A stretch of 54,166 nt of DNA from a virus (taxonomy: Duplodnaviria; Caudoviricetes). Shown in pieces: positions 11,001 to 38,400 of this stretch. The translations under genes were made by a program, and so were the position numbers. The notes under the pieces are model-generated. The model was not told the origin of the DNA. It worked only from the letters and a program-made list of their open reading frames with translations, and searched no databases. How positions within the stretch are numbered: the stretch's first letter is position 1; the number at the start of each line of letters is the position of its first letter. Location: the IMG/VR virus record IMGVR_UViG_3300030380_000295, positions 1-54,166 of that record; one strand, 5' to 3'.

Positions 11001-11235
11001 ACTTCTTATCTATATGTTTTTTTAGTCCCATTCTTGAAAGTTTACGATTCGTACTGGCTTCTAGCCAATCTACTGCAACCGCTAAACTAATCTCATCGTT
11101 TCGTACCATTTGTGATACAACATTTAAAGCATGTATCTGTTCATCAATAGGTTTTAAATAACCATCTACTTCTGCATCAACTTCATAACCAAAAGGTATT
11201 GTTGATGTTTTTCTTTTTATATATCCTTCTTTCAT
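10936..11235 (-). CDS. Hypothetical DNA-binding protein
   Basis: 99 aa, TIPFGY...W.L...RKLS..GL pattern resembling the DNA-binding domain of serine recombinases; no catalytic domain. Confidence 0.55.
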   Translation of the reverse strand: MKEGYIKRKTSTIPFGYEVDAEVDGYLKPIDEQIHALNVVSQMVRNDEISLAVAVDWLEASTNRKLSRMGLKKHIDKKYDRQRQEESDKNKFNSILDRF

Positions 11236-11648
11236 CTTTGATTATGTGTTCTATGTGCTATTTTACTTTCCCAATCTTCAATAGCTTTAGCTATACTTTC
11301 TTCTGCTAATACACTACAATGTAATTTAATTGGAGGTAAGTCTAGTGCTGCTGCTATGTCTTTATCTTTTATTTGCTTTGCTTCTTCAACTGTCTTACCT
11401 TTGAGCATCTCGACAAACATAGTACTAGATGCTATTGCAGAACCACAACCATATGTTTTAAACTTAACGTCTTCTATTGTGTCTCCATCAAGTTTAAGCT
11501 GTAGTCTCATTACATCTCCACATGCAGGTGCACCAGTCATACCTGTAGCAACATTAGGGTCTGTAGGATCAAACCTACCTACTGCATGTTTCTCAGGTTC
11601 ATTGAGGACACTTTCAAATCTTTCTATTACTTGTTGTGAATAAGCCAT
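11232..11648 (-). CDS. iscU: Fe-S cluster assembly scaffold IscU (auxiliary metabolic gene)
   Basis: All three Cys ligands present (GAPACGD, KTYGCGSAIASS, KLHCS) plus the LPPIK HscA-binding motif. Confidence 0.93.
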   Translation of the reverse strand: MAYSQQVIERFESVLNEPEKHAVGRFDPTDPNVATGMTGAPACGDVMRLQLKLDGDTIEDVKFKTYGCGSAIASSTMFVEMLKGKTVEEAKQIKDKDIAAALDLPPIKLHCSVLAEESIAKAIEDWESKIAHRTHNQR

Positions 11649-15980: not shown

Positions 15981-16706
15981 ATGCCAAGTTACAAATTACT
16001 ATCACAGGGTAGTATGAAGATTGACAAGAGCAACAAGATACAAGATAAATACTTCAGTAGAATATTATATCTTGCACCACACAACTTAGCTGATGGCAAG
16101 CGTACTGTATGTCCATATGCTACAGTTGCTAAATGCCATGAACCATGTTTAAATACAGCAGGTATGGGTAAGTTTTCCAATGTACAACAATCTAGAATAC
16201 GTAAGACTTTGCTGTTCTTGGATGAGTATGATACCTTTATGGAGTATCTTATACAGGACATCAACAAGTTTATTGGAGAGTGTTACAAGCTTAACAAGAT
16301 ACCATGTGTCAGGCTAAATGGTACTTCGGATATACAATGGGAACATCAGTTGGTTGATGGTAGGAATGTGTTTGAGATATTCCCTGATGTATTGTTTTAT
16401 GATTACACCAAGATACCTACACGAAAAGTTTCACATATCAAAAACTATCATCTGACTTGGAGTTATTCAGAAGCTAACGACAAGTATGCTAAGTTATTTG
16501 ATGATGTACAATGCAACAAAGCTGTTGTATTTAGAAAAGAATTACCTGAGACTTTCAGAGGTCTCAAAGTAATAGATGGTGACAAACACGATATGAGATT
16601 CCTTGACGAGTCTAATGTAGTAGTCGGACTGACTGCTAAAGGACCTGCTAAGAAAGATTATTCAGGGTTTGTTGTTGATAATTTAATAGAAGCGAGGGCA
16701 ATATAG
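15981..16706 (+). CDS. GP88-family protein (Cys-rich, radical-SAM-like phage protein)
   Basis: CPYATVAKCHEPCL, VRLNGTSDI.W, FYDYTK, NYHLTWS and DGDKHDMRFLD motifs. Confidence 0.7.
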   Translation: MPSYKLLSQGSMKIDKSNKIQDKYFSRILYLAPHNLADGKRTVCPYATVAKCHEPCLNTAGMGKFSNVQQSRIRKTLLFLDEYDTFMEYLIQDINKFIGECYKLNKIPCVRLNGTSDIQWEHQLVDGRNVFEIFPDVLFYDYTKIPTRKVSHIKNYHLTWSYSEANDKYAKLFDDVQCNKAVVFRKELPETFRGLKVIDGDKHDMRFLDESNVVVGLTAKGPAKKDYSGFVVDNLIEARAI

Positions 16707-18296: not shown

Positions 18297-18791
18297 TTGA
18301 ATATATTTTATTTTAACAAGTGTCCCATCAAAGCAGCAGAAGATCAACCTGATAAGATGCTAGTCAAGATGCCATTAGAAACAGCACAGATGTTATGCAC
18401 AGCTCATAGAGAGCTTGATGGTGACGAGTATGCTGATGCTAATGGTTTATACAAACGAGCATATTGGAATCACCCATGTACTATTTGGGCTAGAGAAGCT
18501 AGTGGTAACTATGAATGGTTATATCAACACTTCATTGCTTTATCTTTTGAATACACTTATAGGTATGGTAAGCAACATGCAAGCTATGTTAAGTTACACA
18601 AAGCATTAGCTAAATGCCCTGACAATATAACACAAGGTAGAATAACTAAGCTTGCACAAGCTATGCCTGATGAATATAAACATCCTGACCCTATCGTTGC
18701 ATACAGGACCTACGTAGTAAATGAAAAGCACTATGCTAAATGGGAGAAGGGCAGAGACAAACCTAAATGGTGGTCGCATGACAGAGTATGA
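18297..18791 (+). CDS. Pyrimidine-dimer DNA glycosylase-like protein
   Basis: MNIFY, VKMPLETAQML, NHPCTIWAR, NYEWL, EY..RYGK.H and QAMPDEYK motifs. Confidence 0.65.
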   Translation: MNIFYFNKCPIKAAEDQPDKMLVKMPLETAQMLCTAHRELDGDEYADANGLYKRAYWNHPCTIWAREASGNYEWLYQHFIALSFEYTYRYGKQHASYVKLHKALAKCPDNITQGRITKLAQAMPDEYKHPDPIVAYRTYVVNEKHYAKWEKGRDKPKWWSHDRV

Positions 18792-25724: not shown

Positions 25725-25997
25725 ATGGAATATAAATTTGATGAGAACATAAACTTGAAAACAGTACATCAGTATATCGATAGTACCTACACTCAACACT
25801 ATGCTCATTCTAAATATCAGGCAACCGATATGATTATAGATGCAGGACATGGTGAGGGTTTTTGTATAGGAAATATTATGAAATATTCTATGCGATATGG
25901 GAAGAAGAATGGTAAGTCAAATAAAGATTTACTTAAGATTATACACTACGCATTGATAGCTTTGTACTTAAATCAGGATGAAAACAAAAATGATTAA
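25725..25997 (+). CDS. DUF3310-like protein (T7 gp1.7 nucleotide-kinase-related)
   Basis: HY, GFCIGNIMKY..RYGKK.G....DLLK..HY motifs. Confidence 0.7.
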   Translation: MEYKFDENINLKTVHQYIDSTYTQHYAHSKYQATDMIIDAGHGEGFCIGNIMKYSMRYGKKNGKSNKDLLKIIHYALIALYLNQDENKND

Positions 25998-27867
25998 AGA
26001 ATATTTAGGAATACAAATAGATTACAGTAAAGATAAAAAACTAGATAAGTTTAGTATTGATACTTTGTCCGATAGATACTATTGGGAAAATGAGAAGAGT
26101 CCACAAGAAGCTTTTGCAAGAGCTGCAGTTTTTGGAGCTACATACAAAGGACAAATAAATTTTAGTTTAGCACAGAGGTTATATAATTATGCATCCGATC
26201 ATTGGTTTATGTTTAGCACTCCTATACTTAGTAACGGGGGAACAACTCGTGGCTTACCTATTAGCTGCTTTCTCAATTACGTACCTGATTCGAGGGTTGG
26301 TCTTTCTGATCACTATGATGAAAACATATGGCTCGCAAGTTCAGGTGGAGGTATCGGTGGATATTGGGGAGATGTTAGGAGTGATGGTGTGTCAACTGGC
26401 AACGGTTCTCGTTCTACTGGATCAATCCCGTTTATGCATGTTGTAGACTCTCAGATGTTAGCCTTCAATCAAGGCACTACAAGACGAGGAAGTTATGCTG
26501 CATACTCTGACATATCTCATCCGGAGATTGAAGAATTTATTAACATGCGTAAGTCTTCTGGTGGAGATATTAATAGAAAGAATCTTAACTTACACAACGC
26601 AGTCAACATAACTAATGAGTTCTTAGAAGCTGTTAAGACTGACGATGAATGGAGATTGATAGACCCTAAGACTAATGAACCTACTAAAGTTATTAGTGCT
26701 AGAGAATTATGGATGCGTTTACTTGAGACTAGAGCAGAGACTGGTGAGCCTTATTTAATTAATATAGATACATGTAATGAAGCATTACCGGCAAAACAAA
26801 AAGAGTTAGGTTTAAAAATTAATCAAAGTAACTTATGCTCTGAGATTACTTTAGCAACAAACGATGAACGTACTGCTGTTTGTTGTTTGTCTAGTGTTAA
26901 TTTAGAATATTATGATACATGGAAAGATGATGAAAAGTTTATAAAAGATTTAGTAACAATGCTTGACAATGTTCTTGAGCATTTTATTGGAGAGATAGTA
27001 CACACAGAAAAATTAGGTGGTTACACTGCAAATTATAAGAGGTTTAAAAGTTATGTTAAAGAAGGTAAAAAAGGTTTGGTTAAAGCTGCGTACTCAGCAT
27101 ACAGAGAACGATCAATTGGATTGGGTGCAATGGGATTCCACTCATACCTCCAAAGTAAAGGGCTATCTTTTAATGGTCTTCAACAGACTGGGATTAACAA
27201 CACCATATTTTCTACTATTAAATCCAAGGCTTCGGAAGCTACTACTCTACTTGCTGAAATGCGTGGTGAAGCTCCTGATGTACATGGTAGCAATAAGCGT
27301 AACGCTCATCTTTTGGCTATTGCTCCTAATGCCAGTAGTAGCATTATATGTGGTGGTACTTCCCCTAGTATTGAACCATATCGTGCTAACGTATATACGC
27401 ACAAAACTTTATCAGGTAACTACAAAGTTAAAAATAAATTTCTAGAAAAACTTCTTAAACAGAAAGGACTTCTTGCAGATGAAAGAGAAAAGGTATGGAA
27501 AGATATTTCAAATGAAAGAGGTTCTATACAAAATATTAAAATATTTAATAAAGAAGAAAAAGAAATATTTAAAACAGCAGATGAAATAAATCAATTACAT
27601 TTAGTAGAACACGCAAAGATTAGACAAGAATATATTTGTCAAAGTCAAAGTGTTAATCTTTTCTTTGTGCCACCGAAGGCTACAGAATCTCAAAAAGTAC
27701 ATGATGAATTTTTACAATACTTAAATGATGTTCATTGGTATGCTATGCATAATTTAAAATCATTGTACTATTTAAGATCAGATGCTGCTAAGTCTGCAGA
27801 AAATGTAAACGTAAGAATACCTAGAATTAATTTAGAAGACACAGAATGTATAAGCTGTGAAGGATAA
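25978..27867 (+). CDS. nrdA: Class I ribonucleotide reductase alpha subunit
   Basis: STPILSN, LPISCFL, QSNLCSEI, VCCLSS, IAPNASSS, KSLYY and C-terminal CISCEG; no ATP cone. Confidence 0.95.
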   Translation: MKTKMIKEYLGIQIDYSKDKKLDKFSIDTLSDRYYWENEKSPQEAFARAAVFGATYKGQINFSLAQRLYNYASDHWFMFSTPILSNGGTTRGLPISCFLNYVPDSRVGLSDHYDENIWLASSGGGIGGYWGDVRSDGVSTGNGSRSTGSIPFMHVVDSQMLAFNQGTTRRGSYAAYSDISHPEIEEFINMRKSSGGDINRKNLNLHNAVNITNEFLEAVKTDDEWRLIDPKTNEPTKVISARELWMRLLETRAETGEPYLINIDTCNEALPAKQKELGLKINQSNLCSEITLATNDERTAVCCLSSVNLEYYDTWKDDEKFIKDLVTMLDNVLEHFIGEIVHTEKLGGYTANYKRFKSYVKEGKKGLVKAAYSAYRERSIGLGAMGFHSYLQSKGLSFNGLQQTGINNTIFSTIKSKASEATTLLAEMRGEAPDVHGSNKRNAHLLAIAPNASSSIICGGTSPSIEPYRANVYTHKTLSGNYKVKNKFLEKLLKQKGLLADEREKVWKDISNERGSIQNIKIFNKEEKEIFKTADEINQLHLVEHAKIRQEYICQSQSVNLFFVPPKATESQKVHDEFLQYLNDVHWYAMHNLKSLYYLRSDAAKSAENVNVRIPRINLEDTECISCEG

Positions 27868-27870
27868 GAT

Positions 27871-28092
27871 ATGACAGAAGAAAAATTTGACAGAATGTAT
27901 GAGAGTAGATTTGATGCTCTCCAAAAGAAATATGAAGCTGAGATAGCTATAGCTAGAACAGAATTAGATACTTACTTTCAATTAAGTGTGGGAGTAGCAG
28001 AGCATCCCCACGTTATTGAATCAATGGATGTACTTTTTGATCAGTTAGCTAACGCTCAAGAAAAATTAGACTTACTAATTAAGGAGTTTTAA
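27871..28092 (+). CDS. Hypothetical protein
   Basis: 73 aa helical hairpin with a VGVAEHP motif. Confidence 0.7.
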   Translation: MTEEKFDRMYESRFDALQKKYEAEIAIARTELDTYFQLSVGVAEHPHVIESMDVLFDQLANAQEKLDLLIKEF

Positions 28093-28250
28093 TGGAAGAT
28101 TCATTTAGTCAGTTTTGTAGGAGGATGTGGTTAGACCATTGTGATGATAATAAAACACCACATTCTGTAACATACACAGAAGCAGAATATAAAAAAGAAT
28201 TTAACAAATGGCTACTGAAAAAGTATGCCGAAGAACAGGAAAAAACATGA
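28092..28250 (+). CDS. Small hypothetical protein (52 aa)
   Basis: AAGGAG RBS; MEDSFSQFCRRMWLDHCDDN...; ATGA overlap with nrdB. Confidence 0.65.
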   Translation: MEDSFSQFCRRMWLDHCDDNKTPHSVTYTEAEYKKEFNKWLLKKYAEEQEKT

Positions 28251-29233
28251 GCTTATTAGGAACACAAAATTATTTTAAACCATTCGAGCATCCTTGGATG
28301 TTTGACTATTGGGATTTACAGCAACAGATGCATTGGATACCTAATGATGTACCTCTCAACACTGATGTAAAGGATTGGAACAATCATCTTACAGATGAAG
28401 AACGTAATTTAGTTAAACAAATATTTAGATTATTTACACAGTCAGATGTAGATGTAGGTGCAGCTTATATTCATAAGTATATGAAATTGTTCAGAAAACC
28501 AGAGGCACAATTAATGATGTCAGCATTTGCTAACATGGAAGGAATACATCAGGTTGCTTACAGTCAGCTACTAGAAACAATTGGTATGTCAGATAAAGAG
28601 TACAAAGCTTTTGCTGAATACGAAGAGATGGCTAACAAACATGAATATCTTTTAGACTTTAAACCTACAAGAAACAATAAACCAGAAATTGCAAAAGCGT
28701 TAGCAGTATACTCTGCATTCACCGAAGGACTACAGTTGTTTAGTAGCTTTGCAATCTTGTTAAACTTTCCTAGATATGGTAAGATGAAAGGTATGGGTCA
28801 GATTGTTACATACTCTATACGTGACGAGTCTCTACATGTTGAAGCTATGACTAAATTATTTAGAGAGTTTATAAAAGAAAATCCTGAGTTGTGGACTGAC
28901 GATCTGAAGAAAGAACTATATGATATCTGTAGAAAAATGGTAGAGCTAGAAGATAAATTTTTAGATTTAGTATTTGAGATGGGTAATCTTGAAGGACTTA
29001 CTAAAGATGAAATGTATGCATACAACAGATACATAGCTGATAGAAGATTATTACAGTTGGGATTAAAACCAAACTTTAAACAAAAAGACAATCCTTTGGA
29101 GTGGATTGACGAAGTAATAGGTGTTGAACATCAAAACTTTTTTGAAGGTAAAGCAACATCCTATATGAAAGCAGGGCTAAGAGGAAATCATGGAAGTTTA
29201 ACTTTTACGGAATTGCAAAATGAAAAAGAATGA
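28247..29233 (+). CDS. nrdB: Class Ia ribonucleotide reductase beta subunit
   Basis: FTQSD, EGIHQVAY (radical Tyr), EGLQLFSSF, DESLH, NFFE; start probably 28247 (MSLL). Confidence 0.95.
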   Translation: MSLLGTQNYFKPFEHPWMFDYWDLQQQMHWIPNDVPLNTDVKDWNNHLTDEERNLVKQIFRLFTQSDVDVGAAYIHKYMKLFRKPEAQLMMSAFANMEGIHQVAYSQLLETIGMSDKEYKAFAEYEEMANKHEYLLDFKPTRNNKPEIAKALAVYSAFTEGLQLFSSFAILLNFPRYGKMKGMGQIVTYSIRDESLHVEAMTKLFREFIKENPELWTDDLKKELYDICRKMVELEDKFLDLVFEMGNLEGLTKDEMYAYNRYIADRRLLQLGLKPNFKQKDNPLEWIDEVIGVEHQNFFEGKATSYMKAGLRGNHGSLTFTELQNEKE

Positions 29234-29438
29234 AGCCACATTAATTAGTTATAAATTAGTAATGGATCAAAAAGGAAAAGTGTATAGTGAACGTAGCATT
29301 AGTGATATAGATCAACTCGAAGAAAGATTTAATCCTATTTTATTTAATACTTTAAAGACTACACTGCGAAGAGCATCCTCTGAACTAGATACTATTCATA
29401 ATAAAATTGAAGCAGATTTAAATTGTAGAATTCAATAA
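29220..29438 (+). CDS. Hypothetical protein (last gene of the + arm)
   Basis: 72 aa; overlaps the cyclase stop convergently by 21 nt. Confidence 0.6.
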   Translation: MKKNEATLISYKLVMDQKGKVYSERSISDIDQLEERFNPILFNTLKTTLRRASSELDTIHNKIEADLNCRIQ

Positions 29439-31199
29439 CGTATAAATTTTTAGTGGCTCTGTTTTACCTTTTACAGGTATTGGTTTTAAAACTTTAAAAA
29501 CATTTGAGCACTTAGATGTGGTTACATGAGTAATCAATAGATCATGTCCTGCTTCTTTACATGCTGACTCTGTTCTAGCTGCAGTATTAACAGCATCACC
29601 TATAGCTGTATAATCGAAACGTGATTCACTACCCATGTTTCCTATTACAGCTTCACCACTATTAATACCAATCCCAATAGCTATGGGATCAATGTTTTGG
29701 TTTTTTAATTCTTCATTCAAAGTTATCATTCCTTCTTGAATATCCAACGCACAGTCTACTGCTTTCTGTTCGTGTCCTTCCAAGTCTAATGGTGCTCCGA
29801 AGATAGCCATCATTGCATCACCAATATATTTATCTACCATACCACCATGTTTCTGAACAGCCTGTTGTTGTACAGTCAATGCTTTGTTCATAACATATGT
29901 TACATCTTGAGGATCAAGCTTCTCTGACATAGCTGTAAATCCTCTTACGTCTGTAAATAAAAAGGTACAGTACCTCTTTTCTCCACCCAACTTTAAAAGC
30001 TCCGGATTGTTTTGTAATCTCTTTATTTGAGCCGGGTCTAAATAGTGTTCAAACTGTTTTTTAATTTGCTGACGAAGTTTAAATTGTGTCCTATAATTTA
30101 GATAAAAAGCTACACTTGCAGTTATAAACTGTGAGATCAAAGACCACGACACATCTATCAAGATTCCACGCTGAATTAAGTAGTATCCAGAAAACGCTGT
30201 TAGAGCACCGATAAATCCTGCTAATACCAGTCCAAGGGTAATACCAAATACGTTTAATACAAGCCAAATACAGGCGATTGAGAGGGTAAATATGAGTACT
30301 TCTGCAGCTAGACTGTAATCAGGTATGTAAGGGCTATTCTGGACCAAGATTGACTCGGCTAATGCAGCTTGAATTTTGTGTGGTTCTAGTAATCCAACCG
30401 GTGTACTTAGCTGTGGCATAACACCGTTAGCTGTCACTCCAACAATCACAAACTTATCTTGGACAGACATATCTTTTAATGTTGTAGAAGGGGTATCAAC
30501 CCAACTAATCCACTTACGACCAAGAGAGTCTACAGGTACAGCAGGAATTCCTTTTACTCTAACTTCTTCTATACCATTTTGATTTGTTTTAATTACATAT
30601 GTATCAGCACCTGCTAAAACTTTTAAGACTTGTGTACCAAAAGAAGCTACCCAACCATCCGGAGTTCGCATTAACAAAGGTAGTCTTCTAACCAATCCAT
30701 CTACATCTATTGGAGCAGATGCAATCCCTTGAGTTGCTTTAGATTTTAACAAGTCTATATTCTCTACGACACCTGATAATTCATAACCACCTATATCATC
30801 TCCTAATATAACTGTTCCTTCTGTTCTAGGAAACTTACCATTGTTATATTCAAACATAGATAATATACTTGGATGCAATCCTAATACATTTGCTAACTCT
30901 TCATCACCTCCAAATCTATCAGGCTCACTAAATGATATAACATATCCAACACCTATAGCTCCACGATTCAATAACTCCATATGTATTTCAGCTAACCTTT
31001 GACGAGGTAAAGGATAACCACCTTCTCTTTGTATATCCTCCTCAGTTATGTCAAGGGTTGTAAAGTATCCTGAAGCTGACTGCTCTGGAATTAATGCATC
31101 AAAAGTTTTTAACTTCAATACTTCTAGAGGTAGCATATTAAACACAAGAGGAATACCAAGAAGCACTGTGAGTCCTAACCATTGTAATGTTTTTATCAT
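29418..31199 (-). CDS. CHASE2-domain membrane class III adenylate cyclase
   Basis: N-terminal TM, CHASE2 (IDVDGLVRRLPL, DKFVIVG, H.IQA), three TMs, then FTDVRGFT, DKYIGDAMM, YTAIGDAVNTAARTE and VKGK. The Lys/Thr specificity pair indicates ATP. Confidence 0.92.
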   Translation of the reverse strand: MIKTLQWLGLTVLLGIPLVFNMLPLEVLKLKTFDALIPEQSASGYFTTLDITEEDIQREGGYPLPRQRLAEIHMELLNRGAIGVGYVISFSEPDRFGGDEELANVLGLHPSILSMFEYNNGKFPRTEGTVILGDDIGGYELSGVVENIDLLKSKATQGIASAPIDVDGLVRRLPLLMRTPDGWVASFGTQVLKVLAGADTYVIKTNQNGIEEVRVKGIPAVPVDSLGRKWISWVDTPSTTLKDMSVQDKFVIVGVTANGVMPQLSTPVGLLEPHKIQAALAESILVQNSPYIPDYSLAAEVLIFTLSIACIWLVLNVFGITLGLVLAGFIGALTAFSGYYLIQRGILIDVSWSLISQFITASVAFYLNYRTQFKLRQQIKKQFEHYLDPAQIKRLQNNPELLKLGGEKRYCTFLFTDVRGFTAMSEKLDPQDVTYVMNKALTVQQQAVQKHGGMVDKYIGDAMMAIFGAPLDLEGHEQKAVDCALDIQEGMITLNEELKNQNIDPIAIGIGINSGEAVIGNMGSESRFDYTAIGDAVNTAARTESACKEAGHDLLITHVTTSKCSNVFKVLKPIPVKGKTEPLKIYTLLNSTI

Positions 31200-32278
31200 G
31201 AGCCTTGCCTTATCTTTATTGTTGATGAACCACCACCATTTACTTTGATGGTATGAGATACTCCGTCTTGTATTAAAATAAGAGTAAAACTTTCGTCACT
31301 ACCTGTATCTAATCTAAAAGAACTTTCTATATTTCTACGAAGACTTATTGTTTGTCCTTGTACTATAGTTGTAATTTGTGTATCAGCATCCTGTCCTATC
31401 TGTGTACCTACTAATGTAAATCCAGATACATCTTTTAGTTTATCTTCCTCTTCGTCTACTTGCAATACATCTAATACATCTAATAAGTCTTCGAGAAAGT
31501 TTACATCTAAATAATTTATATCTAATTCTGTAAACTCTAACTCTGCTTCTGCATCTAAAAAGTCTTCATTTAAATAGTCTATATCTAAATCATTAAAATC
31601 TAAAAATCCAGATGAGGAAGATACTGAAACTTCTTGAGCAAACTGTGGGTCTTCTTTTGGAGGTGTTACAATAAGCATGTTATCTATCAAGTCTAATGTA
31701 AGATCAAGGATTACTGGCTTACTTGGCGAGTTCTCAAAGACTGATACGCTTGTTGCTTGGAAAGGTTTGTTAAGTACAACAGTGCCTGTAGCTGTAGATA
31801 CAAGTATCTCACCACTAGATAAACCTTCTTCATCTGGTAAAAGTATTATTAAAGACCTGCCAAGTTCGTCTACAGTACAAGTAAAGTCTGTACCACGAAT
31901 TGCTATGTTTGCTGTTGGTGTTGAGAGATTAATGTTTTCTTTATTAATCTTACCAAGACTACTAGTGACAAATCGTATTGTGCCACTAGCAAATTGTAGA
32001 GCCATCTTAGATTTAGATGGGTCTGGATCGTAGATGTACTCATCAATAATTAACTGAGAATGTTCAGTCAATCGTACACGACTATCATCTAGAAATGTAA
32101 TGCCTAACCTTCCATTAGACGTTTGTACATTATCGTAACTGTCTATATCAAAAGCTAGGGTAGCAGCGTAAGCATCATCTCTTACAACTCTACCCGAACC
32201 TTCTAATTCTGTAATGCTTCCTATATCAGCAAGAAGTGGACAAGCCACCATCAGACTGAACCACACAGACTGTTCCAT
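31196..32278 (-). CDS. Secreted FecR-domain protein with an acidic low-complexity region
   Basis: Signal peptide from ATG 32278; D.VQT..GR..ITFLD.S.VRL.E.S.L.IDEY and TPTANIAIRGTDF. Confidence 0.85.
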   Translation of the reverse strand: MEQSVWFSLMVACPLLADIGSITELEGSGRVVRDDAYAATLAFDIDSYDNVQTSNGRLGITFLDDSRVRLTEHSQLIIDEYIYDPDPSKSKMALQFASGTIRFVTSSLGKINKENINLSTPTANIAIRGTDFTCTVDELGRSLIILLPDEEGLSSGEILVSTATGTVVLNKPFQATSVSVFENSPSKPVILDLTLDLIDNMLIVTPPKEDPQFAQEVSVSSSSGFLDFNDLDIDYLNEDFLDAEAELEFTELDINYLDVNFLEDLLDVLDVLQVDEEEDKLKDVSGFTLVGTQIGQDADTQITTIVQGQTISLRRNIESSFRLDTGSDESFTLILIQDGVSHTIKVNGGGSSTIKIRQGS

Positions 32279-32936
32279 TACTGCCTGTCGAATCGATTCT
32301 AAGCCAATCATTATCTAATGTACTCTGTTGATCTACGTTAAATGTTCTGGAACTACCTGTTTGATCTAAGTAAAAGTATCCTCCGGCATAACCATCACCA
32401 TCGAAAGTTACGCTGTTAGAGTTACCATCTATATCTACATAGCTTGTACCTGAGTCATAATCAATATCAAAGTCTAGTGTGTTACTATCACCTTGTATAA
32501 TCCAATCAAGATCAGTTGTACTTGCCATAGCTACAGTTGCAAGGTCTAAAGTAAATGTATTACTTGTACCTGTTACATCTACATTTAAGTTTGAACTATC
32601 AGCTCCATATGTGTTTGTTGGATCAACCTGTATATTAAACGTGTTACTGTCTCCATCAAACTCAAAGAAGCCTGTTAATGTATCAGCCAGAATATCTCCA
32701 AGAAATTTATTTGAGTCACCTATTTGATTTATGTCTAGTGTCATACTAGAACCATCTAAATCTAAAGGAGTCATTGTTCCTGCAACTGCATCAGTACCAC
32801 CAATGATGTTACCTGAACCTAACTGCTCTAAATCTATGTTAGCTGTAGCTCCTGACTGATCAACGTATATTTCGTTATCAGCCCCGAATGTCAATGCACT
32901 CACCACAATCAATAGGCTTAATGCTATCTTCTTCAT
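32226..32936 (-). CDS. Secreted curlin-like (CsgA/CsgB-like) repeat protein
   Basis: Signal peptide; repeated Q/D-x-G-x-x-N units (EQLGSGN, NQIGDSN, FDGDSN, IQGDSN, IDGNSN); terminal Cys pair. Confidence 0.7.
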   Translation of the reverse strand: MKKIALSLLIVVSALTFGADNEIYVDQSGATANIDLEQLGSGNIIGGTDAVAGTMTPLDLDGSSMTLDINQIGDSNKFLGDILADTLTGFFEFDGDSNTFNIQVDPTNTYGADSSNLNVDVTGTSNTFTLDLATVAMASTTDLDWIIQGDSNTLDFDIDYDSGTSYVDIDGNSNSVTFDGDGYAGGYFYLDQTGSSRTFNVDQQSTLDNDWLRIDSTGSNGTVCVVQSDGGLSTSC

Positions 32937-33729
32937 ATTCCCAATATCCTCTATCTATTCCTGTTTCTATTATATTTAAAACACCTGTCTCTACTGCTCT
33001 TTGCAAAGCTATAGATACAGATTCGTTTTCTGTAAACCCTCCTTCAACTTCGACAAGTTCAGTTCCAAGTTCTATGAACCGAAATATATCTTGTGACAAA
33101 CCTACAGATAAAATACTTTTAGAGACTAATACCTCTATGAGTACTTCACCTGTGCTTACAGAAACCAATCGTAGGGAGATACTGACTGTATCTTCTCGGT
33201 ACTGTTTACTCGTACCTATGCCTAAATATCTAGCACCTAATCCACCACTACTCAGATTTGTATCGTAACTAATAACTCCACCTTGTACTAACAAACCTGC
33301 AAAGAGTAATGGTTTTAATTTATTATCCTCTTTGAATTCTTTTCTTGTTGTTCTTATGAGCTGTCTTTCTTTTGTAAGATCATCTAATCCTACTCGTTCT
33401 ACAACTTTAAAGAACTTCCCATCTGCAGCATGCTTAAAAGCCCTGATTAAAAAAGCTTCAGGTGCTTGGGTAATTGCTGTACTAAAAAGAGCAAACTCAC
33501 TGTTACTTTTACGTTGCCCTGTCAAGTCTTTGAAGCTGTTAGGGTATACTGCAATTGTCGGCTTATTTAAAGCTGCCGGTAAATCTTTTAATTCTTTTGA
33601 CTGTAAATCTAATACAGATGATTCTTGTATAACTATGTTAGGTATACCACCTGTAGTTAATAATGAATCATACTTGATAGCACAACTAGAAAGTAAAAGA
33701 CCCAATAGGCAAAGTGATAATTGTTTCAT
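32878..33729 (-). CDS. csgG: Curli secretion pore lipoprotein CsgG
   Basis: Lipobox LLSSC; F.DLTGQRK, FSTAITQ, F.VVER.GLD.L.KERQLIR, GG.GARYLGIG....YR.D.V...LRLVSV.TGEVL. Confidence 0.92.
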   Translation of the reverse strand: MKQLSLCLLGLLLSSCAIKYDSLLTTGGIPNIVIQESSVLDLQSKELKDLPAALNKPTIAVYPNSFKDLTGQRKSNSEFALFSTAITQAPEAFLIRAFKHAADGKFFKVVERVGLDDLTKERQLIRTTRKEFKEDNKLKPLLFAGLLVQGGVISYDTNLSSGGLGARYLGIGTSKQYREDTVSISLRLVSVSTGEVLIEVLVSKSILSVGLSQDIFRFIELGTELVEVEGGFTENESVSIALQRAVETGVLNIIETGIDRGYWEYEEDSIKPIDCGECIDIRG

Positions 33730-34201
33730 TCCCTTCTGCATCCGTTATTTTTAGTGTGATATATTCTCCATCTGCTTCATACTCAATTGTATTACCTTCT
33801 AGTTCTACTTGACCAGACTCAGAGGGATTCTCTCCAAATAAATTTTCTACTAACTGCCTAGATAATTGTGCATATATTCTAGACTCTAAGTTTCTAATAA
33901 ATCTGGCAAGTGTTGTGTTCTTTGCTTCTCGTGCAAGCTCATCTTGATAAGCCTCTACCTCTGCTTTAATGGCTTCTTTCCTATTGAACTCTTGATTTTC
34001 TATTGTAAGGTAATGAGAGCTTGTGTTGTCACCCGAAAAGCTAGGGTTCTTAAACTTATGTACTAACTGATCTGCAGCTAGTGTGTTAATAAGAAACATT
34101 GACAAGATCATAAATGTTAATGCAACTATCTGTAACACCGACATGATAGCTACTTGTTTCATTGGGTGTATGTCTTCAATCTTAATCTTTTCTTTGATCA
34201 T
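33686..34201 (-). CDS. csgF: Curli assembly protein CsgF
   Basis: Hydrophobic leader then LVHKFKNPSFSG (compare CsgF F.FRNPNFGG), F..NLESRIYAQLS.QL, and G..T.I.LP end. Confidence 0.85.
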   Translation of the reverse strand: MIKEKIKIEDIHPMKQVAIMSVLQIVALTFMILSMFLINTLAADQLVHKFKNPSFSGDNTSSHYLTIENQEFNRKEAIKAEVEAYQDELAREAKNTTLARFIRNLESRIYAQLSRQLVENLFGENPSESGQVELEGNTIEYEADGEYITLKITDAEGNETIITLPIGSFTF

Positions 34202-34532
34202 CTCTATCAGCTTTTGCGATCTTGTTACTATCTATAAGTTGTGGTACTCCTAGTATAGTTTTGATAAGTGTATCTTGACGAATGATCTCATTGTCTAAAC
34301 TACGTACTCTGTCTATTAAGGCTACTAAGATACCATGCTGTGAATCTAACTTAGTACCTAGTCTTAGTTCCATTTGTTCTATTTGGTCAGCAACTTTATC
34401 ATCGAGTACATCAAGTTTAGTTTCCATACCATCAATAATACGATTAATAAGTTTCCAAATGAAGAAACCTAATCCTAATGCAGCAGCTATTGGAAAACCT
34501 ACTTCATTAATAAACTGAATTGCTTGGTCCAT
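34182..34532 (-). CDS. Small membrane protein (holin-like, single TM plus coiled coil)
   Basis: INEVGFPIAAALGLGFFIWK N-terminus. Confidence 0.6.
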   Translation of the reverse strand: MDQAIQFINEVGFPIAAALGLGFFIWKLINRIIDGMETKLDVLDDKVADQIEQMELRLGTKLDSQHGILVALIDRVRSLDNEIIRQDTLIKTILGVPQLIDSNKIAKADRDDQRKD

Positions 34533-34672: not shown

Positions 34673-34861
34673 CTATTGGTCACTGCTTTCAGTTGATTTA
34701 CACTCCGTTTTATTAAATTCATTCCATCTTAGGAATTTCTTGGTTTCTAAATCCCAAAACAATCCTTTATAACAATTATCTTGAGAGCCTTCTTCTTCGT
34801 TGTCGTGCCCGAACCAATTCCACCGTCCGTCCTCGATAACGTCTTTTAATTTCTGTTTCAT
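34673..34861 (-). CDS. Hypothetical protein
   Basis: 62 aa, Trp-rich, coupled to the upstream stop. Confidence 0.55.
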   Translation of the reverse strand: MKQKLKDVIEDGRWNWFGHDNEEEGSQDNCYKGLFWDLETKKFLRWNEFNKTECKSTESSDQ

Positions 34862-35331
34862 TAATCTTGTTTATTAGAAGCTCCAAAGTAAAAGCTTATT
34901 ACTGCAGAGGCTAGTCCTCCTAAGTAACCTAGTACTAAGTTTATTAATGCTTCTGAATTCTGTTCTGGTGGCTGTAAAGTTACTAAAAATATGTAGCCTA
35001 AGAAACCACCTACTGTTGCTATACCCATAATACGTGCTGTCCAGTCTTTACTAAACTTACCTCTAGCATCTTGTATGTCTGCTGTCTCAAGCTTAAAGAC
35101 ATCTACTTCAAGCTCTTTCATCTGGAGTTCAAACTCTTGTTCAGCTTTTTTAAGTTCAAGCATTTGCTCTGGTGTAGCTTCTTGTATAGCCTTCTCAATA
35201 GCTTTTGGTGTATTAGGTACTCCAAGTACATCTGCTATCATATTAGCTGCCATGCCTCCCATAGGACCGCCTAGTGCAGTGCCTATTGTAGGTGCTACTG
35301 CTCCTACTAAACTCTTTAACATATCTTTCAT
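34861..35331 (-). CDS. Putative holin (3-TM type)
   Basis: VAPTIGTALGGPMGGMA N-terminus, D.QDAR, two C-terminal TMs ending VISFYFGAS. Confidence 0.65.
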   Translation of the reverse strand: MKDMLKSLVGAVAPTIGTALGGPMGGMAANMIADVLGVPNTPKAIEKAIQEATPEQMLELKKAEQEFELQMKELEVDVFKLETADIQDARGKFSKDWTARIMGIATVGGFLGYIFLVTLQPPEQNSEALINLVLGYLGGLASAVISFYFGASNKQD

Positions 35332-35477
35332 TCTTCGTCCTTATATATTACTTCCATCATATCTTCAAACATTAATCTATAATCTTCTAAAGACATAAAG
35401 GGCATATCTTGTTTTACTTGATGTAGGCAGTACTTCCTGTAACAACCTTCTAATTGATCTTCTAAATACAGTATCAT
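35328..35477 (-). CDS. Small hypothetical protein (49 aa)
   Basis: MILYLEDQLEGCYRKYC...MPFMSLEDYRLMFE; coupled to both neighbours. Confidence 0.6.
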   Translation of the reverse strand: MILYLEDQLEGCYRKYCLHQVKQDMPFMSLEDYRLMFEDMMEVIYKDEE

Positions 35478-38400
35478 TATATCGTCCTATTCTTTTTTGT
35501 CAATTTTTTGGTAACTTTAAACTGAGCATTGTCAAATAATATGTAGTCGTCATTAGCATGAATACTATCATATCCTAAATCAGTTAAGGTGTTTCGTAAC
35601 TGGGTACTTTGTTTTATATCTAATAAAGGTTTAGTAACTTCTGGAGGATGTTTTGTGAAGTCTTGTATTAATTTTTGAGTGTCAGTATAATCATTTAATA
35701 AATTTTTAACCAGTTGTTTTGCATTTTGTTTATCTAACCTAGACCCGTTAATTAACTTGTCTTGCATTTCTTTGTTGTCTTGTAACAACTTAGTAAACTC
35801 TGAACCTGTTAGTTGATCTTCAGAGATTTGACCAAGCTCAAGAGGATTCACAATACTAAGTTTACCTATATATTTTATTTTCTTACCGCCTGATTTTCTA
35901 GGTTTAGTTGTAGCTCTTGGTCCTATGTTAGCTGCGTATTGTAACTCTTCGTCTAAGACGTTTACTAAGTCTGAGTCTACATATCTTACTACATCTTCTT
36001 TAACTGCTTCGGTAAAGAAGCTTGCTTCAATTTTTTTATACAATGGAGTTTTTAGATCAGACTCAAATATAGGCTCAGCTTTTCTAACTTCTTTAGTTAA
36101 ATGTCTAATTACATCGTCTTTATGTGAATCTTCTGTGAGAGTTCTAACTTGTGTAGCTTTTGTAGTATCAGCAATTTTATTTGCAAGTCCTCCTAAAGCA
36201 AAACCTCTACGATCTTCCACGTCTGTAGCTAAGACTCCTCCTAGTTCTGCGTATGTAAAAGGCATACCTCTTACTTTCTTTTCATCTGGTTCTTCGGAGG
36301 CATTAGGTACATCAACTATACCACCTTTTGCAAAACTGTAATCTCTAGTAGACTGTGCAAATCTACCTTTTTGTTTTCTTTCAGTTCCTGTAGGAAACAT
36401 ACTACCCCAAACAGCTTTGTCAGTTCCTCTACCAGATTTCTTCATAGAGTCTCGGATGTCTTTAGGTAACGCACTATAAAAAGGTACGTTAGTATATAAA
36501 GTTTCAATCAATCCTTTTCTGTACAAGACTGAATCAAAGACATCACTAACAATTGGACCTGTTGGAGTTTTTAAAAGTGCTCCGGCTTGACCACTACCAT
36601 AGGTTGCATTTTGATTAAAACGATACGCATAATCAGCAGGACCTAATCCTCCCCATCTTTGAACAGCTTCTAATACAATCGTACCATCATCTTCTTCTAA
36701 ACTTCTACCTCCACTCCTAACTGCGTTCATAAAGACTGCAATGCTTGTCATAGCTAAAGCTGTACCGGCAATCCTAGCAGAAGTTTGTCGTTTGTTTTCT
36801 ATGAGTCCTTCATTAATCCATCTCTTAAGAATGGTGTTGTTAAATACTGTTGGGTATCCTGCAAACTGAGCTAATATTTGTCCGGCAGGATGTGAGAACC
36901 ATAAAGGTCTGTTAGCTTCTGCAGTTGATGGGTTTAAAATAATTTCTCTTGTAAATCTATTAGCTCCTTTTTGGTAGTGATTTTTGTAAAAAGCAATTTG
37001 TTTGTTTTGTTCGAACTTACCTAAAGAAGAAGCTGTTCCTTGTCCTCTACCCTCATCAAACACTCCATCTTTATCTAAAGACCTTGCGTACCATTCTCTT
37101 GCAAATCTATCGTGAACACCAAGTCCATCTAAATGTTTTTTAATATATTCTTTCTTCGACTTACTTAGTGTCTTAACACCAGTTGCATCTAAATGTAAAT
37201 CTCTAGCGTGTTCTCTAATGATTCTTTTACCAGTTGTAAAAGCTGCTAACTGAACTGAGCCAGTCCATGAAGATAAGAAGTTTGCTTTGAAAAAAGCATT
37301 CTGCATTTTTTTAGCAAGTCCTCCTTCTAAAGCTTCACCAGTTAAACTTTCAATTCTATCCATGACAGCTTGTTCCATAGCTAGTCCGACTTTGTAAGCT
37401 TCTGTCCAATACTCGTCTTGCATATCTGCAAAACCTTTTACTTCTTTACCTCTCACTCGTCTTGCAAAAAACTTAATTTTGTCTATATCTTTTTTAACTC
37501 CTTTAACAATAGACTTTCCTACTTCTTTACTAGCTGCAAACTTACCACCTACTGAATCTATACGAGTTAAAAGTATTAGTGGTTCTGTTAAACTTGATAA
37601 TGTAGCTAACGGAAGGTGAGCCATTTGTTGTGATAGCTTAATAAAATCTAACGCTCCGACACCATATTTATTTTTAATTCTTATTTGATCAGTGTCTAAC
37701 CCAGTAACTCGTTCATGCATTAAACGTAGTCTACGAATTGTTTCGTCTATTTCATCTTCATTAATTTTTTCTTTACGTAATTCATTTCTAATAGGTATTA
37801 AAAATTTTTTTTCAAATGCAGCTTTGGTCTTGCCAAAGAACTGCGTTCTAGTAATGGCACGAGATGCATCAGTTACATAAGCCTCTAATACTTTTTCTAC
37901 ATCATTTTCTAAGTATGGAGCTAAAATATTATCATCTATTTTTGAAAATACTCTGTGTTGTAAAAACTGATGTCCTCCTCCGGCATTGTCTTTTGTTCCA
38001 AACTGAAAAGGTGTATGTCTTTTTTCAAGCATGTTGTTTACAATCTGCGTAGCTTTTAACTCTCTAGCTGCTAGTTTTTGTGTATCAGTTAGTTCTTCAA
38101 ATAAGCTAGTCTTACCTTCGCTAACTTCTTTAACAAAGTCTCTTTCAAATACTTCTTGATCTATCCATCTTGCATCTGCTCGTAACACTTTTTCTTCTTT
38201 ACCTGTAGCTCTCACTGCTTGAATGTAAGAATCCTCGGAGTACATATTTTGTGGGAGAGAATGTTCTGAGTCTTTAATAATATCTATTAATCCATCTTTG
38301 TCTGCTTTAATTTTAGAATGAGAAAAATGTCTTGGAAAGAAATGATCGACAAATTGATCTCTAGTTAATAAGCCTGTTGAAACACCTTCTTCAAATATTT

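What the first reader, a model, noticed from the sequence alone, without database searches (positions are those of the whole stretch)
29418..34201. Five-gene trans-envelope module: CsgF, CsgG, curlin-like protein, FecR protein and CHASE2 adenylate cyclase
Seen: five intact, overlapping genes that together span outer membrane (CsgG/CsgF), periplasm or surface (curlin-like, FecR) and inner membrane/cytoplasm (cyclase with complete catalytic residues). Known: CsgG/CsgF form the curli secretion pore, csgG/csgF have been noted in some marine myophages, and FecR-domain proteins are often linked to CHASE2 cyclases in bacteria. A full set including the cyclase in a ~54-kb podophage late operon is unusual to my knowledge. 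Inference: less an amyloid factory than a surface-sensing relay that sets cAMP in the infected cell (CRP reprogramming, lysis timing or superinfection sensing); alternatively it promotes aggregation of infected cells.
Basis: partly seen in the sequence, partly recalled or inferred. Interest (0 to 1): 0.85.

Follow-up and report, generated by a model that had tools for sequence, protein, structure and literature searches.

The report
Phage curli-like secretion module with cyclase
A marine podophage carries a curli-type outer-membrane secretion cassette joined to a FecR-domain protein and a membrane adenylate cyclase; the genes are real, but this cassette has already been described in other SAR11 phages and its function is still untested.

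Summary
Five tightly packed minus-strand genes encode CsgF, CsgG, a curlin-like repeat protein, a FecR-domain protein and a CHASE2/class III adenylate cyclase. The claim that this is unusual is not supported. The same cassette, FecR and cyclase included, was described in HTVC023P-type podophages and pelagimyophages (Wittmers 2022, PMC9599517). It is annotated in HTVC008M and Melnitz.

What I add:
- The window is a complete HTVC103P-type genome, a backbone for which I found no printed report of this cassette.
- A sixth gene, a 116-aa membrane protein, always travels with the cassette. It shows no histidine-kinase features.
- The cyclase is accessory: 46 of 58 decidable related loci have it and 12 lack it. 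FecR is present in 63 of 63.
- The curlin-like protein models as a beta-solenoid whose best PDB match is a CsgA.
- cNMP-binding domains were found in only 3 of 61 genomes of the likely host family.

Best reading: a curli-type secretion and display system with an optional periplasmic sensor-cyclase arm. The sensing-relay idea is weakened, not excluded.

The parts
35476..35503 (-). Sigma-70-type promoter-like site (TTGACA, 16 nt, TATAAT; 12 of 12). It sits at the 3' end of the 1436-aa virion gene, about 145 nt upstream of the first cassette ORF.
   Evidence: It is the only perfect match in the 54-kb window (expected 0.01). A 12/12 site is kept upstream of the up156 homologue in 11 of 53 related loci. 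A site of >=10/12 occurs in 31 of 53, against 16 of 240 random 250-nt windows. It is a consensus match only; function is not shown.
34861..35331 (-). 156-aa membrane protein ('up156'). It has a Gly-rich N-terminus and two C-terminal hydrophobic segments. It sits next to the cassette in both podophage backbones.
   Evidence: phrog_1544, unknown function, E 3.6e-27. Hydropathy segments 99-117 and 129-147. It lies before CsgF in window-type loci and after the cyclase in L035, L042 and L043. No homologue in the myophage loci. Whether it belongs to the cassette is uncertain.
34673..34861 (-). 62-aa ORF ('up62') of no known family.
   Evidence: tblastn finds it only in the closest related loci, the L004-L019 group. 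No Pfam hit at E<=10.
34182..34532 (-). 116-aa protein with one TM segment and a coiled coil ('up116'). It is a sixth conserved member of the cassette and probably the 'HK' of Wittmers et al.
   Evidence: Present in 69 of 69 related loci that have room for it. Homologous ORFs lie directly upstream of csgF in HTVC008M (E 1e-9) and Melnitz (two copies, E 4e-13 and 2e-10). One TM segment at 7-25. Conserved LIDRVRxLDN motif and no invariant His. No kinase domain.
33686..34201 (-). CsgF homologue with a signal peptide.
   Evidence: Pfam PF10614, E 1.5e-20. phrog_35372, E 1.2e-42. 41-43% identical to the CsgF genes of HTVC008M and Melnitz. Present in 74 of 74 loci.
32878..33741 (-). CsgG-family outer-membrane lipoprotein (pore). 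Lipobox-like LLSSC at residues 16-20.
   Evidence: Pfam PF03783, E 5.7e-50. E 1.4e-45 to E. coli CsgG structures (3x2r, 6l7a), aligned over residues 48-272. NCBIfam CsgG 165.8 bits against HfaB 25.1 bits; both are below the equivalog cut-offs.
32226..32936 (-). Curlin-like secreted beta-solenoid protein. It has about eight repeats of a (Q/D)xGxSNxFxhxh-type unit and is the only curlin-type gene in this window.
   Evidence: Signal-peptide-like N-terminus. Model pLDDT 82.9, all-beta. Best of 48,161 PDB representatives is 8c50_A, Pontibacter CsgA: Z 18.8, rmsd 8.5 A, 214 residues, 22% identity; the next hit has Z 15.2. The family profile hits bona fide curlins beside csgFG. Pfam Curlin_rpt scores only 10.7 bits.
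31196..32311 (-). Periplasmic or secreted FecR-domain protein. The FecR domain spans about 30-180. An acidic, low-confidence linker spans about 181-303. A small beta domain spans about 303-357. The true start is probably M12.
   Evidence: Pfam PF04773, E 3.2e-11, residues 62-150. phrog_37870, E 1e-72. Present in 63 of 63 loci. 36-38% identical to the myophage genes. Model is poor, pLDDT 51.3. The Atlas holds the protein from residue 12.
29418..31199 (-). Membrane CHASE2 sensor fused to a class III adenylate cyclase. Layout: TM1, periplasmic CHASE2 (about 25-300), a hydrophobic block, then the cytoplasmic cyclase (about 400-590).
   Evidence: Pfam CHASE2 3.4e-28 and Guanylate_cyc 7.7e-22. Best PDB relatives are Cya2 (2w01) and CyaB (3r5g). 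Catalytic residues conserved. Present in 46 of 58 decidable loci.

Best explanation
This is a member of the already described pelagiphage type VIII (curli-like) secretion cassette, here on an HTVC103P-type podophage backbone.

Proposed working (inferred unless marked shown):
- The cassette is transcribed on the minus strand, possibly from its own strong sigma-70-like promoter.
- CsgF, CsgG, the curlin-like protein and the FecR-domain protein carry N-terminal export signals (shown by sequence) and cross the inner membrane by the host Sec system.
- CsgG, a lipoprotein, forms the outer-membrane channel and CsgF caps it.
- The single curlin-like beta-solenoid subunit is secreted through the channel. 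It is displayed or polymerised on the infected cell. This gives a host that has no such system a new surface: aggregation, or a barrier against other phages.
- The FecR-domain protein and the 116-aa membrane protein are obligatory accessory parts of unknown role. The FecR protein may take the periplasmic adaptor place that CsgE holds in E. coli, since CsgE is absent.
- The CHASE2 adenylate cyclase is an optional add-on. It probably reads a periplasmic state, perhaps through the FecR domain as in bacterial FecR-CHASE2 gene pairs, and makes cAMP.

The confidence given is for this working model. That the block is the known viral cassette I hold at about 0.9.
For: Family assignments.

Same gene order in two cultured myophages, annotated as curli components plus cyclase.

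Published description of the cassette, its spread across 65 GOV2.0 stations and metatranscriptome hits: PMC9599517, passages read.

Co-conservation in the 80 best of 411 viral CsgG loci: up116 69 of 69, CsgF 74 of 74, curlin 71 of 71, FecR 63 of 63, cyclase 46 of 58.

The curlin-like protein:
- Confident beta-solenoid model whose top PDB match is a CsgA.
- Its profile finds true curlins beside csgFG in 7 of 22 bacterial loci.

No CsgE in the window.

Cyclase catalytic residues are conserved in 35-36 of 36 family members.

FecR-domain ORFs lie next to 6 of the 20 closest alphaproteobacterial CHASE2 cyclases.

CsgG was found in only 3 of 61 genomes of the likely host family. At least two of those hits sit in cassette-like contigs.

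Contigs of an RNA library are identical to the window over CsgG/curlin, CsgF/up116 and up62/up156. This is a weak sign of transcription, because DNA carry-over is not excluded.
Against: - No experiment shows fibres.
- Buchholz et al. saw no clumping of Melnitz-infected cells in cytograms or TEM, and argued for a pore or lysis role (PMC9004378, passages read).
- The curlin-like protein fails Pfam's Curlin_rpt cut-off (10.7 against 20.7 bits). It has no significant sequence match to solved CsgA or CsgB (best E 0.24). Foldseek gave nothing at E<=0.001. The CsgA match has a high rmsd of 8.5 A.
- Only one curlin-type gene is present. The second gene of the myophages, the one that passes Pfam (33.1 and 21.8 bits), is absent here.
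- The constriction loop of CsgG differs from that of E. coli.
- The roles of the FecR protein and of up116 are guesses.
- The host is inferred only from cultured relatives at 52-65% protein identity.
Confidence: 0.55

Rival explanations
1. Sensing relay. The outer-membrane pore, the surface protein and the FecR protein mainly feed a signal to the CHASE2 cyclase. The cyclase sets cAMP in the infected cell to control gene expression, lysis timing or superinfection responses.
For: - The cyclase is intact with conserved catalytic residues.
- It is kept in 46 of 58 loci, directly after FecR, with gaps of 0-132 bp.
- FecR-CHASE2 adjacency occurs in 6 of 20 alphaproteobacterial loci.
- In 3 of those 6 the FecR domain heads a giant RTX/cadherin/VWA surface-type protein. 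That fits a link between a surface protein and a periplasmic sensor.
Against: - 12 of 58 related loci lack the cyclase but keep everything else. The cassette therefore works without cAMP output.
- cNMP-binding domains were found in 3 of 61 and class III cyclases in 2 of 61 genomes of the likely host family. None was found in the phage.
Confidence: 0.15
2. Lysis-timing pore (Buchholz et al. 2022). CsgG/CsgF serve as a gated outer-membrane pore or pinholin-like device that helps time or complete lysis. The curlin-like protein is not a fibre.
For: - The cassette is preceded by two small membrane proteins, up156 and up116. up116 has a weak holin-family hit (phrog_4898, E 0.002). The nearest named Atlas cluster is Holin_BhlA at 0.87, which is a lead only.
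- No clumping was seen for Melnitz (PMC9004378).
- No CsgE gate is present.
Against: - A pore role does not explain the strict co-conservation of a secreted CsgA-like solenoid and of CsgF.
- The holin hits are below any reliable level.
- I identified no endolysin beside the cassette in the ORFs I scanned. That scan did not cover every ORF.
Confidence: 0.12
3. Import channel. The ungated CsgG pore lets cofactors, siderophores or other solutes into the periplasm of the infected cell. The FecR domain hints at iron.
For: No CsgE. The idea was raised by Zaragoza-Solas 2020 and Wittmers 2022.
Against: - The FecR-domain protein lacks what defines the iron-signalling anti-sigma factor. Pfam found only the FecR domain and the phage has no sigma-70 region 2.
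- An import role does not explain the curlin-like protein or CsgF.
Confidence: 0.05
4. Assembly chimera, or host DNA wrongly joined to a phage contig.
For: None found.
Against: - The same cassette lies between the same backbone genes in many independent contigs. For example, L004 matches at 84-98% identity for every gene from the 1436-aa gene to nrdA.
- Near-identical DNA is held by 20 run rows from 9 studies.
- GC content is flat across the block.
Confidence: 0.01

Closest known systems
Pelagiphage T8SS (curli) cassette of HTVC023P-type podophages and pelagimyophages (Wittmers et al. 2022, PMC9599517; HTVC008M, Melnitz)
   Same: Same parts in the same order: small 'HK' protein, CsgF, CsgG, curlin-like, FecR, cyclase. 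No CsgE, CsgC or CsgD. Identities to the myophage genes are CsgG 40-47%, CsgF 41-43%, FecR 36-38% and cyclase 33%. Identities to an HTVC023P-type contig (L042) are CsgG 74%, up116 81% and cyclase 61%.
   Different: The backbone is HTVC103P-type. 21 window ORFs match HTVC103P and 3 match HTVC023P. HTVC103P, 104P and 115P themselves lack the cassette. There is no second curlin gene between FecR and the cyclase, in the window or in any of the 46 related loci that have the cyclase. I could not see the paper's figures or data sets, so I cannot say whether its GOV2.0 contig survey already includes this backbone.
Escherichia coli curli system (csgBAC-csgDEFG)
   Same: CsgG pore lipoprotein (E 1.4e-45 to the solved E. 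coli protein). CsgF. A secreted repeat protein with a CsgA-like solenoid model.
   Different: No CsgE. No separate nucleator and major subunit. The constriction loop is altered. Extra FecR, up116 and cyclase genes. CsgC and CsgD were not searched for by family here.
Alphaproteobacterial FecR-domain protein / CHASE2 adenylate cyclase gene pairs
   Same: Full-length CHASE2-cyclase homologues occur in 138 of 401 alphaproteobacterial genomes at E<=1e-60. Of the 20 best loci, 6 have a FecR-domain neighbour.
   Different: None of those 20 loci has CsgG, CsgF or curlin. None of 22 bacterial csgFG loci has FecR or the cyclase within 10 kb. The bacterial FecR partners are often giant RTX/cadherin-type proteins. 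The joining of the two sub-modules is seen only in phages in my samples.
FecR anti-sigma factor of the ferric citrate system
   Same: Shares the Pfam FecR domain.
   Different: Only the FecR domain was found (residues 62-150 of 371). The N-terminus is a signal-like segment, not a cytoplasmic anti-sigma domain. There is no ECF sigma gene in the phage. The 'iron regulator' label is therefore not justified.
Caulobacter holdfast anchor HfaA/HfaB (a recalled comparison)
   Same: CsgG-family lipoprotein plus a curlin-like secreted protein in an alphaproteobacterium.
   Different: The window's CsgG scores 165.8 bits on the NCBIfam CsgG model and 25.1 bits on HfaB. A CsgF is present.

Membership tests
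Type VIII secretion / curli system | CsgG-family outer-membrane lipoprotein pore | tested here: met
   Pfam PF03783, 170 bits against a cut-off of 20.8. E 1.4e-45 to solved E. coli CsgG. An LLSSC lipobox-like motif is seen in the sequence.
Type VIII secretion / curli system | CsgF accessory protein next to CsgG | tested here: met
   Pfam PF10614, 74.1 bits against a cut-off of 25.8. phmmer found no solved CsgF at E<=1.
Type VIII secretion / curli system | Secreted curlin-repeat subunit (CsgA/CsgB type) | tested here: inconclusive
   Pfam Curlin_rpt scores 10.7 bits, below the cut-off of 20.7. NCBIfam CsgA and CsgB score 17.8 bits against cut-offs of 160-165. On the other side, the best structural match is CsgA 8c50_A at Z 18.8, and the family profile hits true curlins beside csgFG.
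Type VIII secretion / curli system | CsgE periplasmic adaptor (gammaproteobacterial type) | tested here: not met
   PF10627 has no match in the window at E<=1. By the literature this fits the alphaproteobacterial operon type.
Type VIII secretion / curli system | Extracellular amyloid fibre is made | not testable with these tools
   Needs expression and Congo red, ThT or EM assays.
Class III adenylate cyclase | Cyclase homology domain with two metal-binding Asp, a substrate-specifying Lys plus Thr/Ser/Asp, and transition-state Asn and Arg | tested here: met
   Pfam PF00211, 78.2 bits. Aligned to 2w01, 3r5g and 6fht. D417, D461, K457, T531, N538 and R542 are conserved in 35-36 of 36. The assignment of residue roles is recalled. 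The product, cAMP or another cNMP, was not assayed. The domain also hits Pycsar PycC profiles.
CHASE2 sensor proteins | Periplasmic CHASE2 domain between an N-terminal TM segment and a C-terminal TM block | tested here: met
   Pfam PF05226, 99.3 bits, residues 18-303. Hydrophobic segments at 2-20 and 308-326.
FecR anti-sigma factor | Cytoplasmic anti-sigma domain, one TM segment, periplasmic FecR domain, and a partner ECF sigma factor | tested here: not met
   Only PF04773 was found, at residues 62-150. No Sigma70_r2 in the window.
Histidine kinase (the label given to the gene before csgF by Wittmers et al.) | HisKA/H-box and HATPase_c domains | tested here: not met
   The 116-aa protein has no kinase family among Pfam hits at E<=10. 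No HATPase_c anywhere in the window at E<=1. No invariant His in 40 aligned homologues. That up116 is the paper's 'HK' is my inference from its position.
HTVC103P-type pelagiphage | Shared core genes and gene order with HTVC103P, 104P and 115P | tested here: met
   TerL 64.5%, PolA 51-52%, portal 58% and capsid 50% identity. 21 window ORFs match HTVC103P and 3 match HTVC023P. The ORF list is mechanical and includes some opposite-strand shadows.

The most novel reading that the evidence does not exclude
The FecR-domain protein and the CHASE2 cyclase form a phage-brought envelope sensor. It reports the state of the curli-like pore or surface layer, or contact with other cells or phages. It does so as cAMP, inside a host lineage that mostly has neither cyclases nor cNMP receptors of its own. 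cAMP would then be a private phage signal acting on an unconventional target, for example to time lysis or block superinfection. Joining a bacterial surface-protein/CHASE2 pair to a T8SS would be a phage invention.
Probability: 0.12. Interest if true: 0.8.

Novelty: new member of a known kind. Interest (0 to 1): 0.35.

Why it matters
SAR11 and its phages are among the most abundant biological entities in the sea. A phage cassette that gives a streamlined, non-aggregating host an outer-membrane secretion system could change particle formation, phage encounter rates and superinfection.

The cassette itself is in print. This window adds four things:
- It shows the cassette on a further podophage backbone, at about 74% CsgG identity to the HTVC023P-type copy. 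That supports repeated exchange of the whole cassette between unrelated phages.
- It sharpens the parts list. The 'histidine kinase' and 'iron regulator' labels are not supported, and a 116-aa membrane protein is a constant member.
- It shows that the cyclase is optional.
- It shows that the likely host family mostly lacks canonical cAMP machinery, which makes the cyclase's target an open and testable question.

Tried and rejected
- blastn of the block against 50,697 phage records found nothing. Only protein-level searches found relatives.
- Complex prediction of the CHASE2 periplasmic domain (residues 22-300) with the mature FecR protein (28-371), each with its own alignment, gave score 0.00 against a mark of 0.32. 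The verdict was 'no answer'. It says nothing for or against binding.
- The FecR-protein structure prediction was poor (pLDDT 51.3). I did not search folds with it.
- Foldseek of the curlin-like model against the PDB gave nothing at E<=0.001. A profile of 49 homologues against PDB sequences gave a best E of 0.24, to unrelated proteins.
- Atlas look-ups gave only viral hypothetical clusters for up116. For the C-terminal half of the FecR protein all scores were below 0.8.
- RNA-library contigs gave next to no cover over the cyclase gene (29409-31211) in X13 and X20. As contigs, this is not evidence of silence. One RNA contig shows a 2-base gap at 33242; I did not follow it up.
- PADLOC matched the cyclase domain to Pycsar PycC profiles (best E 2.8e-29). 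I read this as shared class III ancestry and not as a defence or counter-defence role. The full CHASE2-cyclase architecture is common in Alphaproteobacteria (138 of 401) and no effector is present.
- I considered Hfa holdfast-anchor membership and set it aside.
- Literature searches for the cassette on this backbone found nothing: 'HTVC103P' with 'curli' gave 0 papers and 'HMO-2011' with 'curli' gave 0 papers. A search from 2022 on for pelagiphage, CsgG, adenylate cyclase and type VIII secretion listed only the two known papers as relevant. Subscription journals, among them what I recall as the original HTVC103P description, are not in the library.
- Supplements and figures of PMC9599517 were not seen. 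They may list genomes like this one.
- The genome-contig scan used narrow peptide patterns and returned only 23 loci. '0 of 22 with FecR or cyclase' is therefore a small sample.
- The 80 viral loci are the best CsgG matches of 411. They include repeated recoveries of the same phage types, so the k-of-n counts are not counts of independent lineages.

Full report
WHAT IS THERE. Pfam names four of them well above its cut-offs. They are CsgF (33686-34201), CsgG (32878-33741), a FecR-domain protein (31196-32311) and a CHASE2 plus class III cyclase protein (29418-31199). PHROGs holds phage families for the same four. The 236-aa protein (32226-32936) has no family hit at E<=0.01. Taken as longest ORFs the genes overlap by 56, 59, 86 and 4 nt. 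GC content is flat across the block.

THE GENOME. The window is a whole IMG/VR virus record, which CheckV rates 100% complete. Its large terminase is 64.5% identical to those of Pelagibacter podophages HTVC103P, 104P and 115P. Its DNA polymerase is 51-52% identical. Twenty-one of its mechanically listed ORFs match HTVC103P and three match HTVC023P. The list includes some opposite-strand shadows. The layout also follows HTVC103P: early genes on the plus strand, then a long minus-strand structural block. The three cultured relatives have neither CsgG nor the cyclase. The likely host is therefore a SAR11-type bacterium. This is inferred from relatives only.

IT IS ALREADY IN PRINT. Protein searches of the phage collection found the cyclase and CsgG only in Pelagibacter myophage HTVC008M and Methylophilales myophage Melnitz, apart from short or partial hits. 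In both, the annotated order is CsgF, CsgG, curlin-associated protein, FecR-domain or hypothetical protein, a second curlin-repeat protein, and adenylate/guanylate cyclase.
- Zaragoza-Solas et al. 2020 first noted the cluster in pelagimyophages (PMC7029224, passages read).
- Buchholz et al. 2022 discussed it for Melnitz. They saw no clumping and proposed a lysis-timing pore (PMC9004378, passages read).
- Wittmers et al. 2022 found CsgF, CsgG, CsgA/B, FecR, a 'histidine kinase' and an adenylate cyclase in nine HTVC023P-type podophage genomes. They re-identified the same parts in the myophages. They reported hits at all 65 GOV2.0 stations and in metatranscriptomes. They argued for an alphaproteobacterial origin with a later transfer between virus families (PMC9599517: abstract, sections 6 and 8 and passages).

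WHAT THE RELATED LOCI SHOW. A scan of IMG/VR with a CsgG alignment found 411 viral stretches that encode a relative. The 80 best (69-98% identity) were fetched. Counting only loci with enough sequence to decide:
- the 116-aa ORF upstream of csgF is present in 69 of 69;
- CsgF in 74 of 74;
- the curlin-like gene in 71 of 71;
- the FecR gene in 63 of 63;
- the cyclase follows FecR directly (gap 0-132 bp) in 46 of 58.
The other 12 of 58 lack the cyclase. In six of those, nrdB starts about 225 bp after FecR. None of the 46 has a second curlin gene between FecR and the cyclase.
Forty-four of the 80 loci carry the window's nrdA or nrdB next to the cassette. One locus, L042, is flanked instead by five HTVC023P-like genes and no HTVC103P-like ones. 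L035 and L043 share L042's gene order but too little flank was fetched to type them. Even so, L042's cassette is 74% (CsgG), 81% (up116) and 61% (cyclase) identical to the window's. The cassette thus sits on two unrelated podophage backbones at high similarity, and on myophages at 33-47%. These loci are the best matches of a larger set and include repeated recoveries of the same phage types. The counts are not counts of independent lineages.

THE PARTS.
- CsgG aligns to solved E. coli CsgG over residues 48-272 (E 1.4e-45). The conserved FSTA core of the constriction loop is kept, but the residues before it differ and one is added. It starts with a lipobox-like LLSSC. It is nearer to CsgG than to HfaB.
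- The curlin-like protein has a signal-like N-terminus and about eight repeats of a (Q/D)xGxSN-type unit. With 49 homologues it folds with confidence (pLDDT 82.9, pTM 0.82) into an all-beta repeat structure. Foldseek found nothing significant. Alignment to 48,161 PDB representatives put the Pontibacter korlensis curli subunit CsgA (8c50_A) first: Z 18.8, 214 residues, 22% identity, but rmsd 8.5 A. Generic beta-helices followed at Z 15 and below, with 4-12% identity.
- An HMM of the viral curlin-like family hit a neighbour of csgF/csgG in 7 of 22 bacterial loci. I tested five of those neighbours and all five pass Pfam Curlin_rpt at 30-188 bits. I therefore accept it as a divergent curlin, although it fails Pfam's cut-off itself (10.7 bits).
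- The FecR protein has only the FecR domain. There is no anti-sigma part, and the phage has no ECF sigma. Behind the domain lie a long acidic segment and a small beta domain, modelled poorly.
- The 116-aa protein has one TM segment, a coiled coil with a conserved LIDRVRxLDN motif and no invariant histidine. Homologues sit directly upstream of csgF in both myophages, twice in Melnitz. By position it must be the 'HK, sometimes two' of Wittmers et al. I found no kinase domain in it or anywhere in the window.
- The cyclase aligns to Cya2 and CyaB. It keeps both metal-binding Asp, the Lys and Thr/Ser pair typical of adenylate cyclases, and the Asn and Arg, in 35-36 of 36 family members. The exceptions are in Melnitz. 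The residue roles are recalled from the class III literature.

BACTERIAL COUNTERPARTS. In 22 bacterial csgFG loci (10 kb flanks where the contig allowed), none had a FecR-family or cyclase-family ORF. A 23rd locus is a contig binned into a Pelagibacter MAG. It carries the phage-type cassette, including two up116 copies and, at its end, the cyclase. Conversely, full-length CHASE2-cyclase homologues occur in 138 of 401 sampled alphaproteobacterial genomes. Around the 20 best, six have a FecR-domain ORF within 6 kb and none has CsgG, CsgF or curlin. Three of the six FecR partners are 979-1421-aa proteins with RTX repeats and cadherin, Ig, VWA or Calx domains. One is a 1947-aa Ig/cadherin protein, and two are small. 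In my samples the phage cassette therefore looks like two bacterial sub-modules joined: a curli core, and a FecR/CHASE2-cyclase pair. This agrees with the paper's statement that FecR and the cyclase are not part of bacterial curli operons.

THE HOST SIDE. I searched 61 genomes of the family that holds the Pelagibacter MAG. A cNMP-binding domain was found in 3, a class III cyclase in 2 and CsgG in 3. Two of the CsgG hits are cassette-like. One is the MAG contig above. The other is G415 contig 1, where CsgG and a cyclase lie about 3 kb apart. The phage has no cNMP-binding domain. Many of these genomes are incomplete, so this is 'not found in those searched'. It still makes CRP reprogramming an unlikely purpose and leaves the cyclase's target open.

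EXPRESSION AND REALITY OF THE BLOCK. A perfect sigma-70 consensus (TTGACA, 16 nt, TATAAT) lies at 35476-35503, just upstream of the first cassette ORF. It is the only one in the window (expected 0.01). It is kept as 12/12 in 11 of 53 related loci. A site of >=10/12 occurs in 31 of 53, against 16 of 240 random windows. Near-identical DNA is held by 20 run rows from 9 studies. Contigs from one metatranscriptome library are identical to the window over CsgG/curlin, CsgF/up116 and up62/up156, and also over nrdA, nrdB and structural genes. This fits transcription but does not prove it.

VERDICT.
- Most likely working: a curli-type secretion and display system whose constant parts are up116, CsgF, CsgG, one curlin-like subunit and the FecR-domain protein. 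The CHASE2 adenylate cyclase is an optional sensor arm.
- Nothing about function has been tested experimentally, here or in the papers I read.

Noticed in passing
window 35476-35503 (-): The only perfect sigma-70 consensus promoter in the 54-kb genome. It overlaps the end of the 1436-aa virion gene, directly upstream of the cassette, and is conserved in the closest relatives.
   Followed up: partly
window 11232-11648 (-): NifU/IscU-like Fe-S cluster scaffold gene (Pfam NifU_N, E 1.4e-38) between the terminase and the early region. It is an auxiliary metabolic gene.
   Followed up: no
window 25978-29233 (+): Ribonucleotide reductase-like ORFs (629 aa and 341 aa, named from the sequence and from my recall of the family; no family scan was run). 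They converge on the cyclase gene. In cyclase-less relatives nrdB begins about 225 bp after FecR, so gain or loss of the cyclase is a clean single-gene event.
   Followed up: partly
L086 and L109 (one contig of G003); G415 contig 1, about 7.7-11.9 kb (L144, L141): Cassette-bearing, phage-like contigs are binned inside genomes of the Pelagibacter family. They may be infecting phage or prophage DNA. They account for at least 2 of the 3 CsgG hits in that family.
   Followed up: partly
L120, L123, L125, L133 (alphaproteobacterial loci): The FecR-domain neighbours of CHASE2 adenylate cyclases are giant RTX/cadherin/VWA/Ig surface-type proteins of 979-1947 aa. This suggests a bacterial pairing of an adhesin N-terminus with a CHASE2 sensor, which I did not find discussed in the papers read.
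   Followed up: partly
L054, L082, L086, L002: The up116-family gene is duplicated in tandem in some cassettes. This matches the 'sometimes two' of Wittmers et al.
   Followed up: partly
window 33242: One contig of an RNA library lacks 2 bases here, inside csgG. The DNA runs do not show this. It could be an assembly error or a variant.
   Followed up: no
window 18297-18791 (+) and 15981-16706 (+): A pyrimidine-dimer DNA glycosylase-like gene (Pfam E 5.7e-6) and a GP88-family gene (E 2.4e-43) in the early region. The latter is one of the three ORFs shared with HTVC023P.
   Followed up: no
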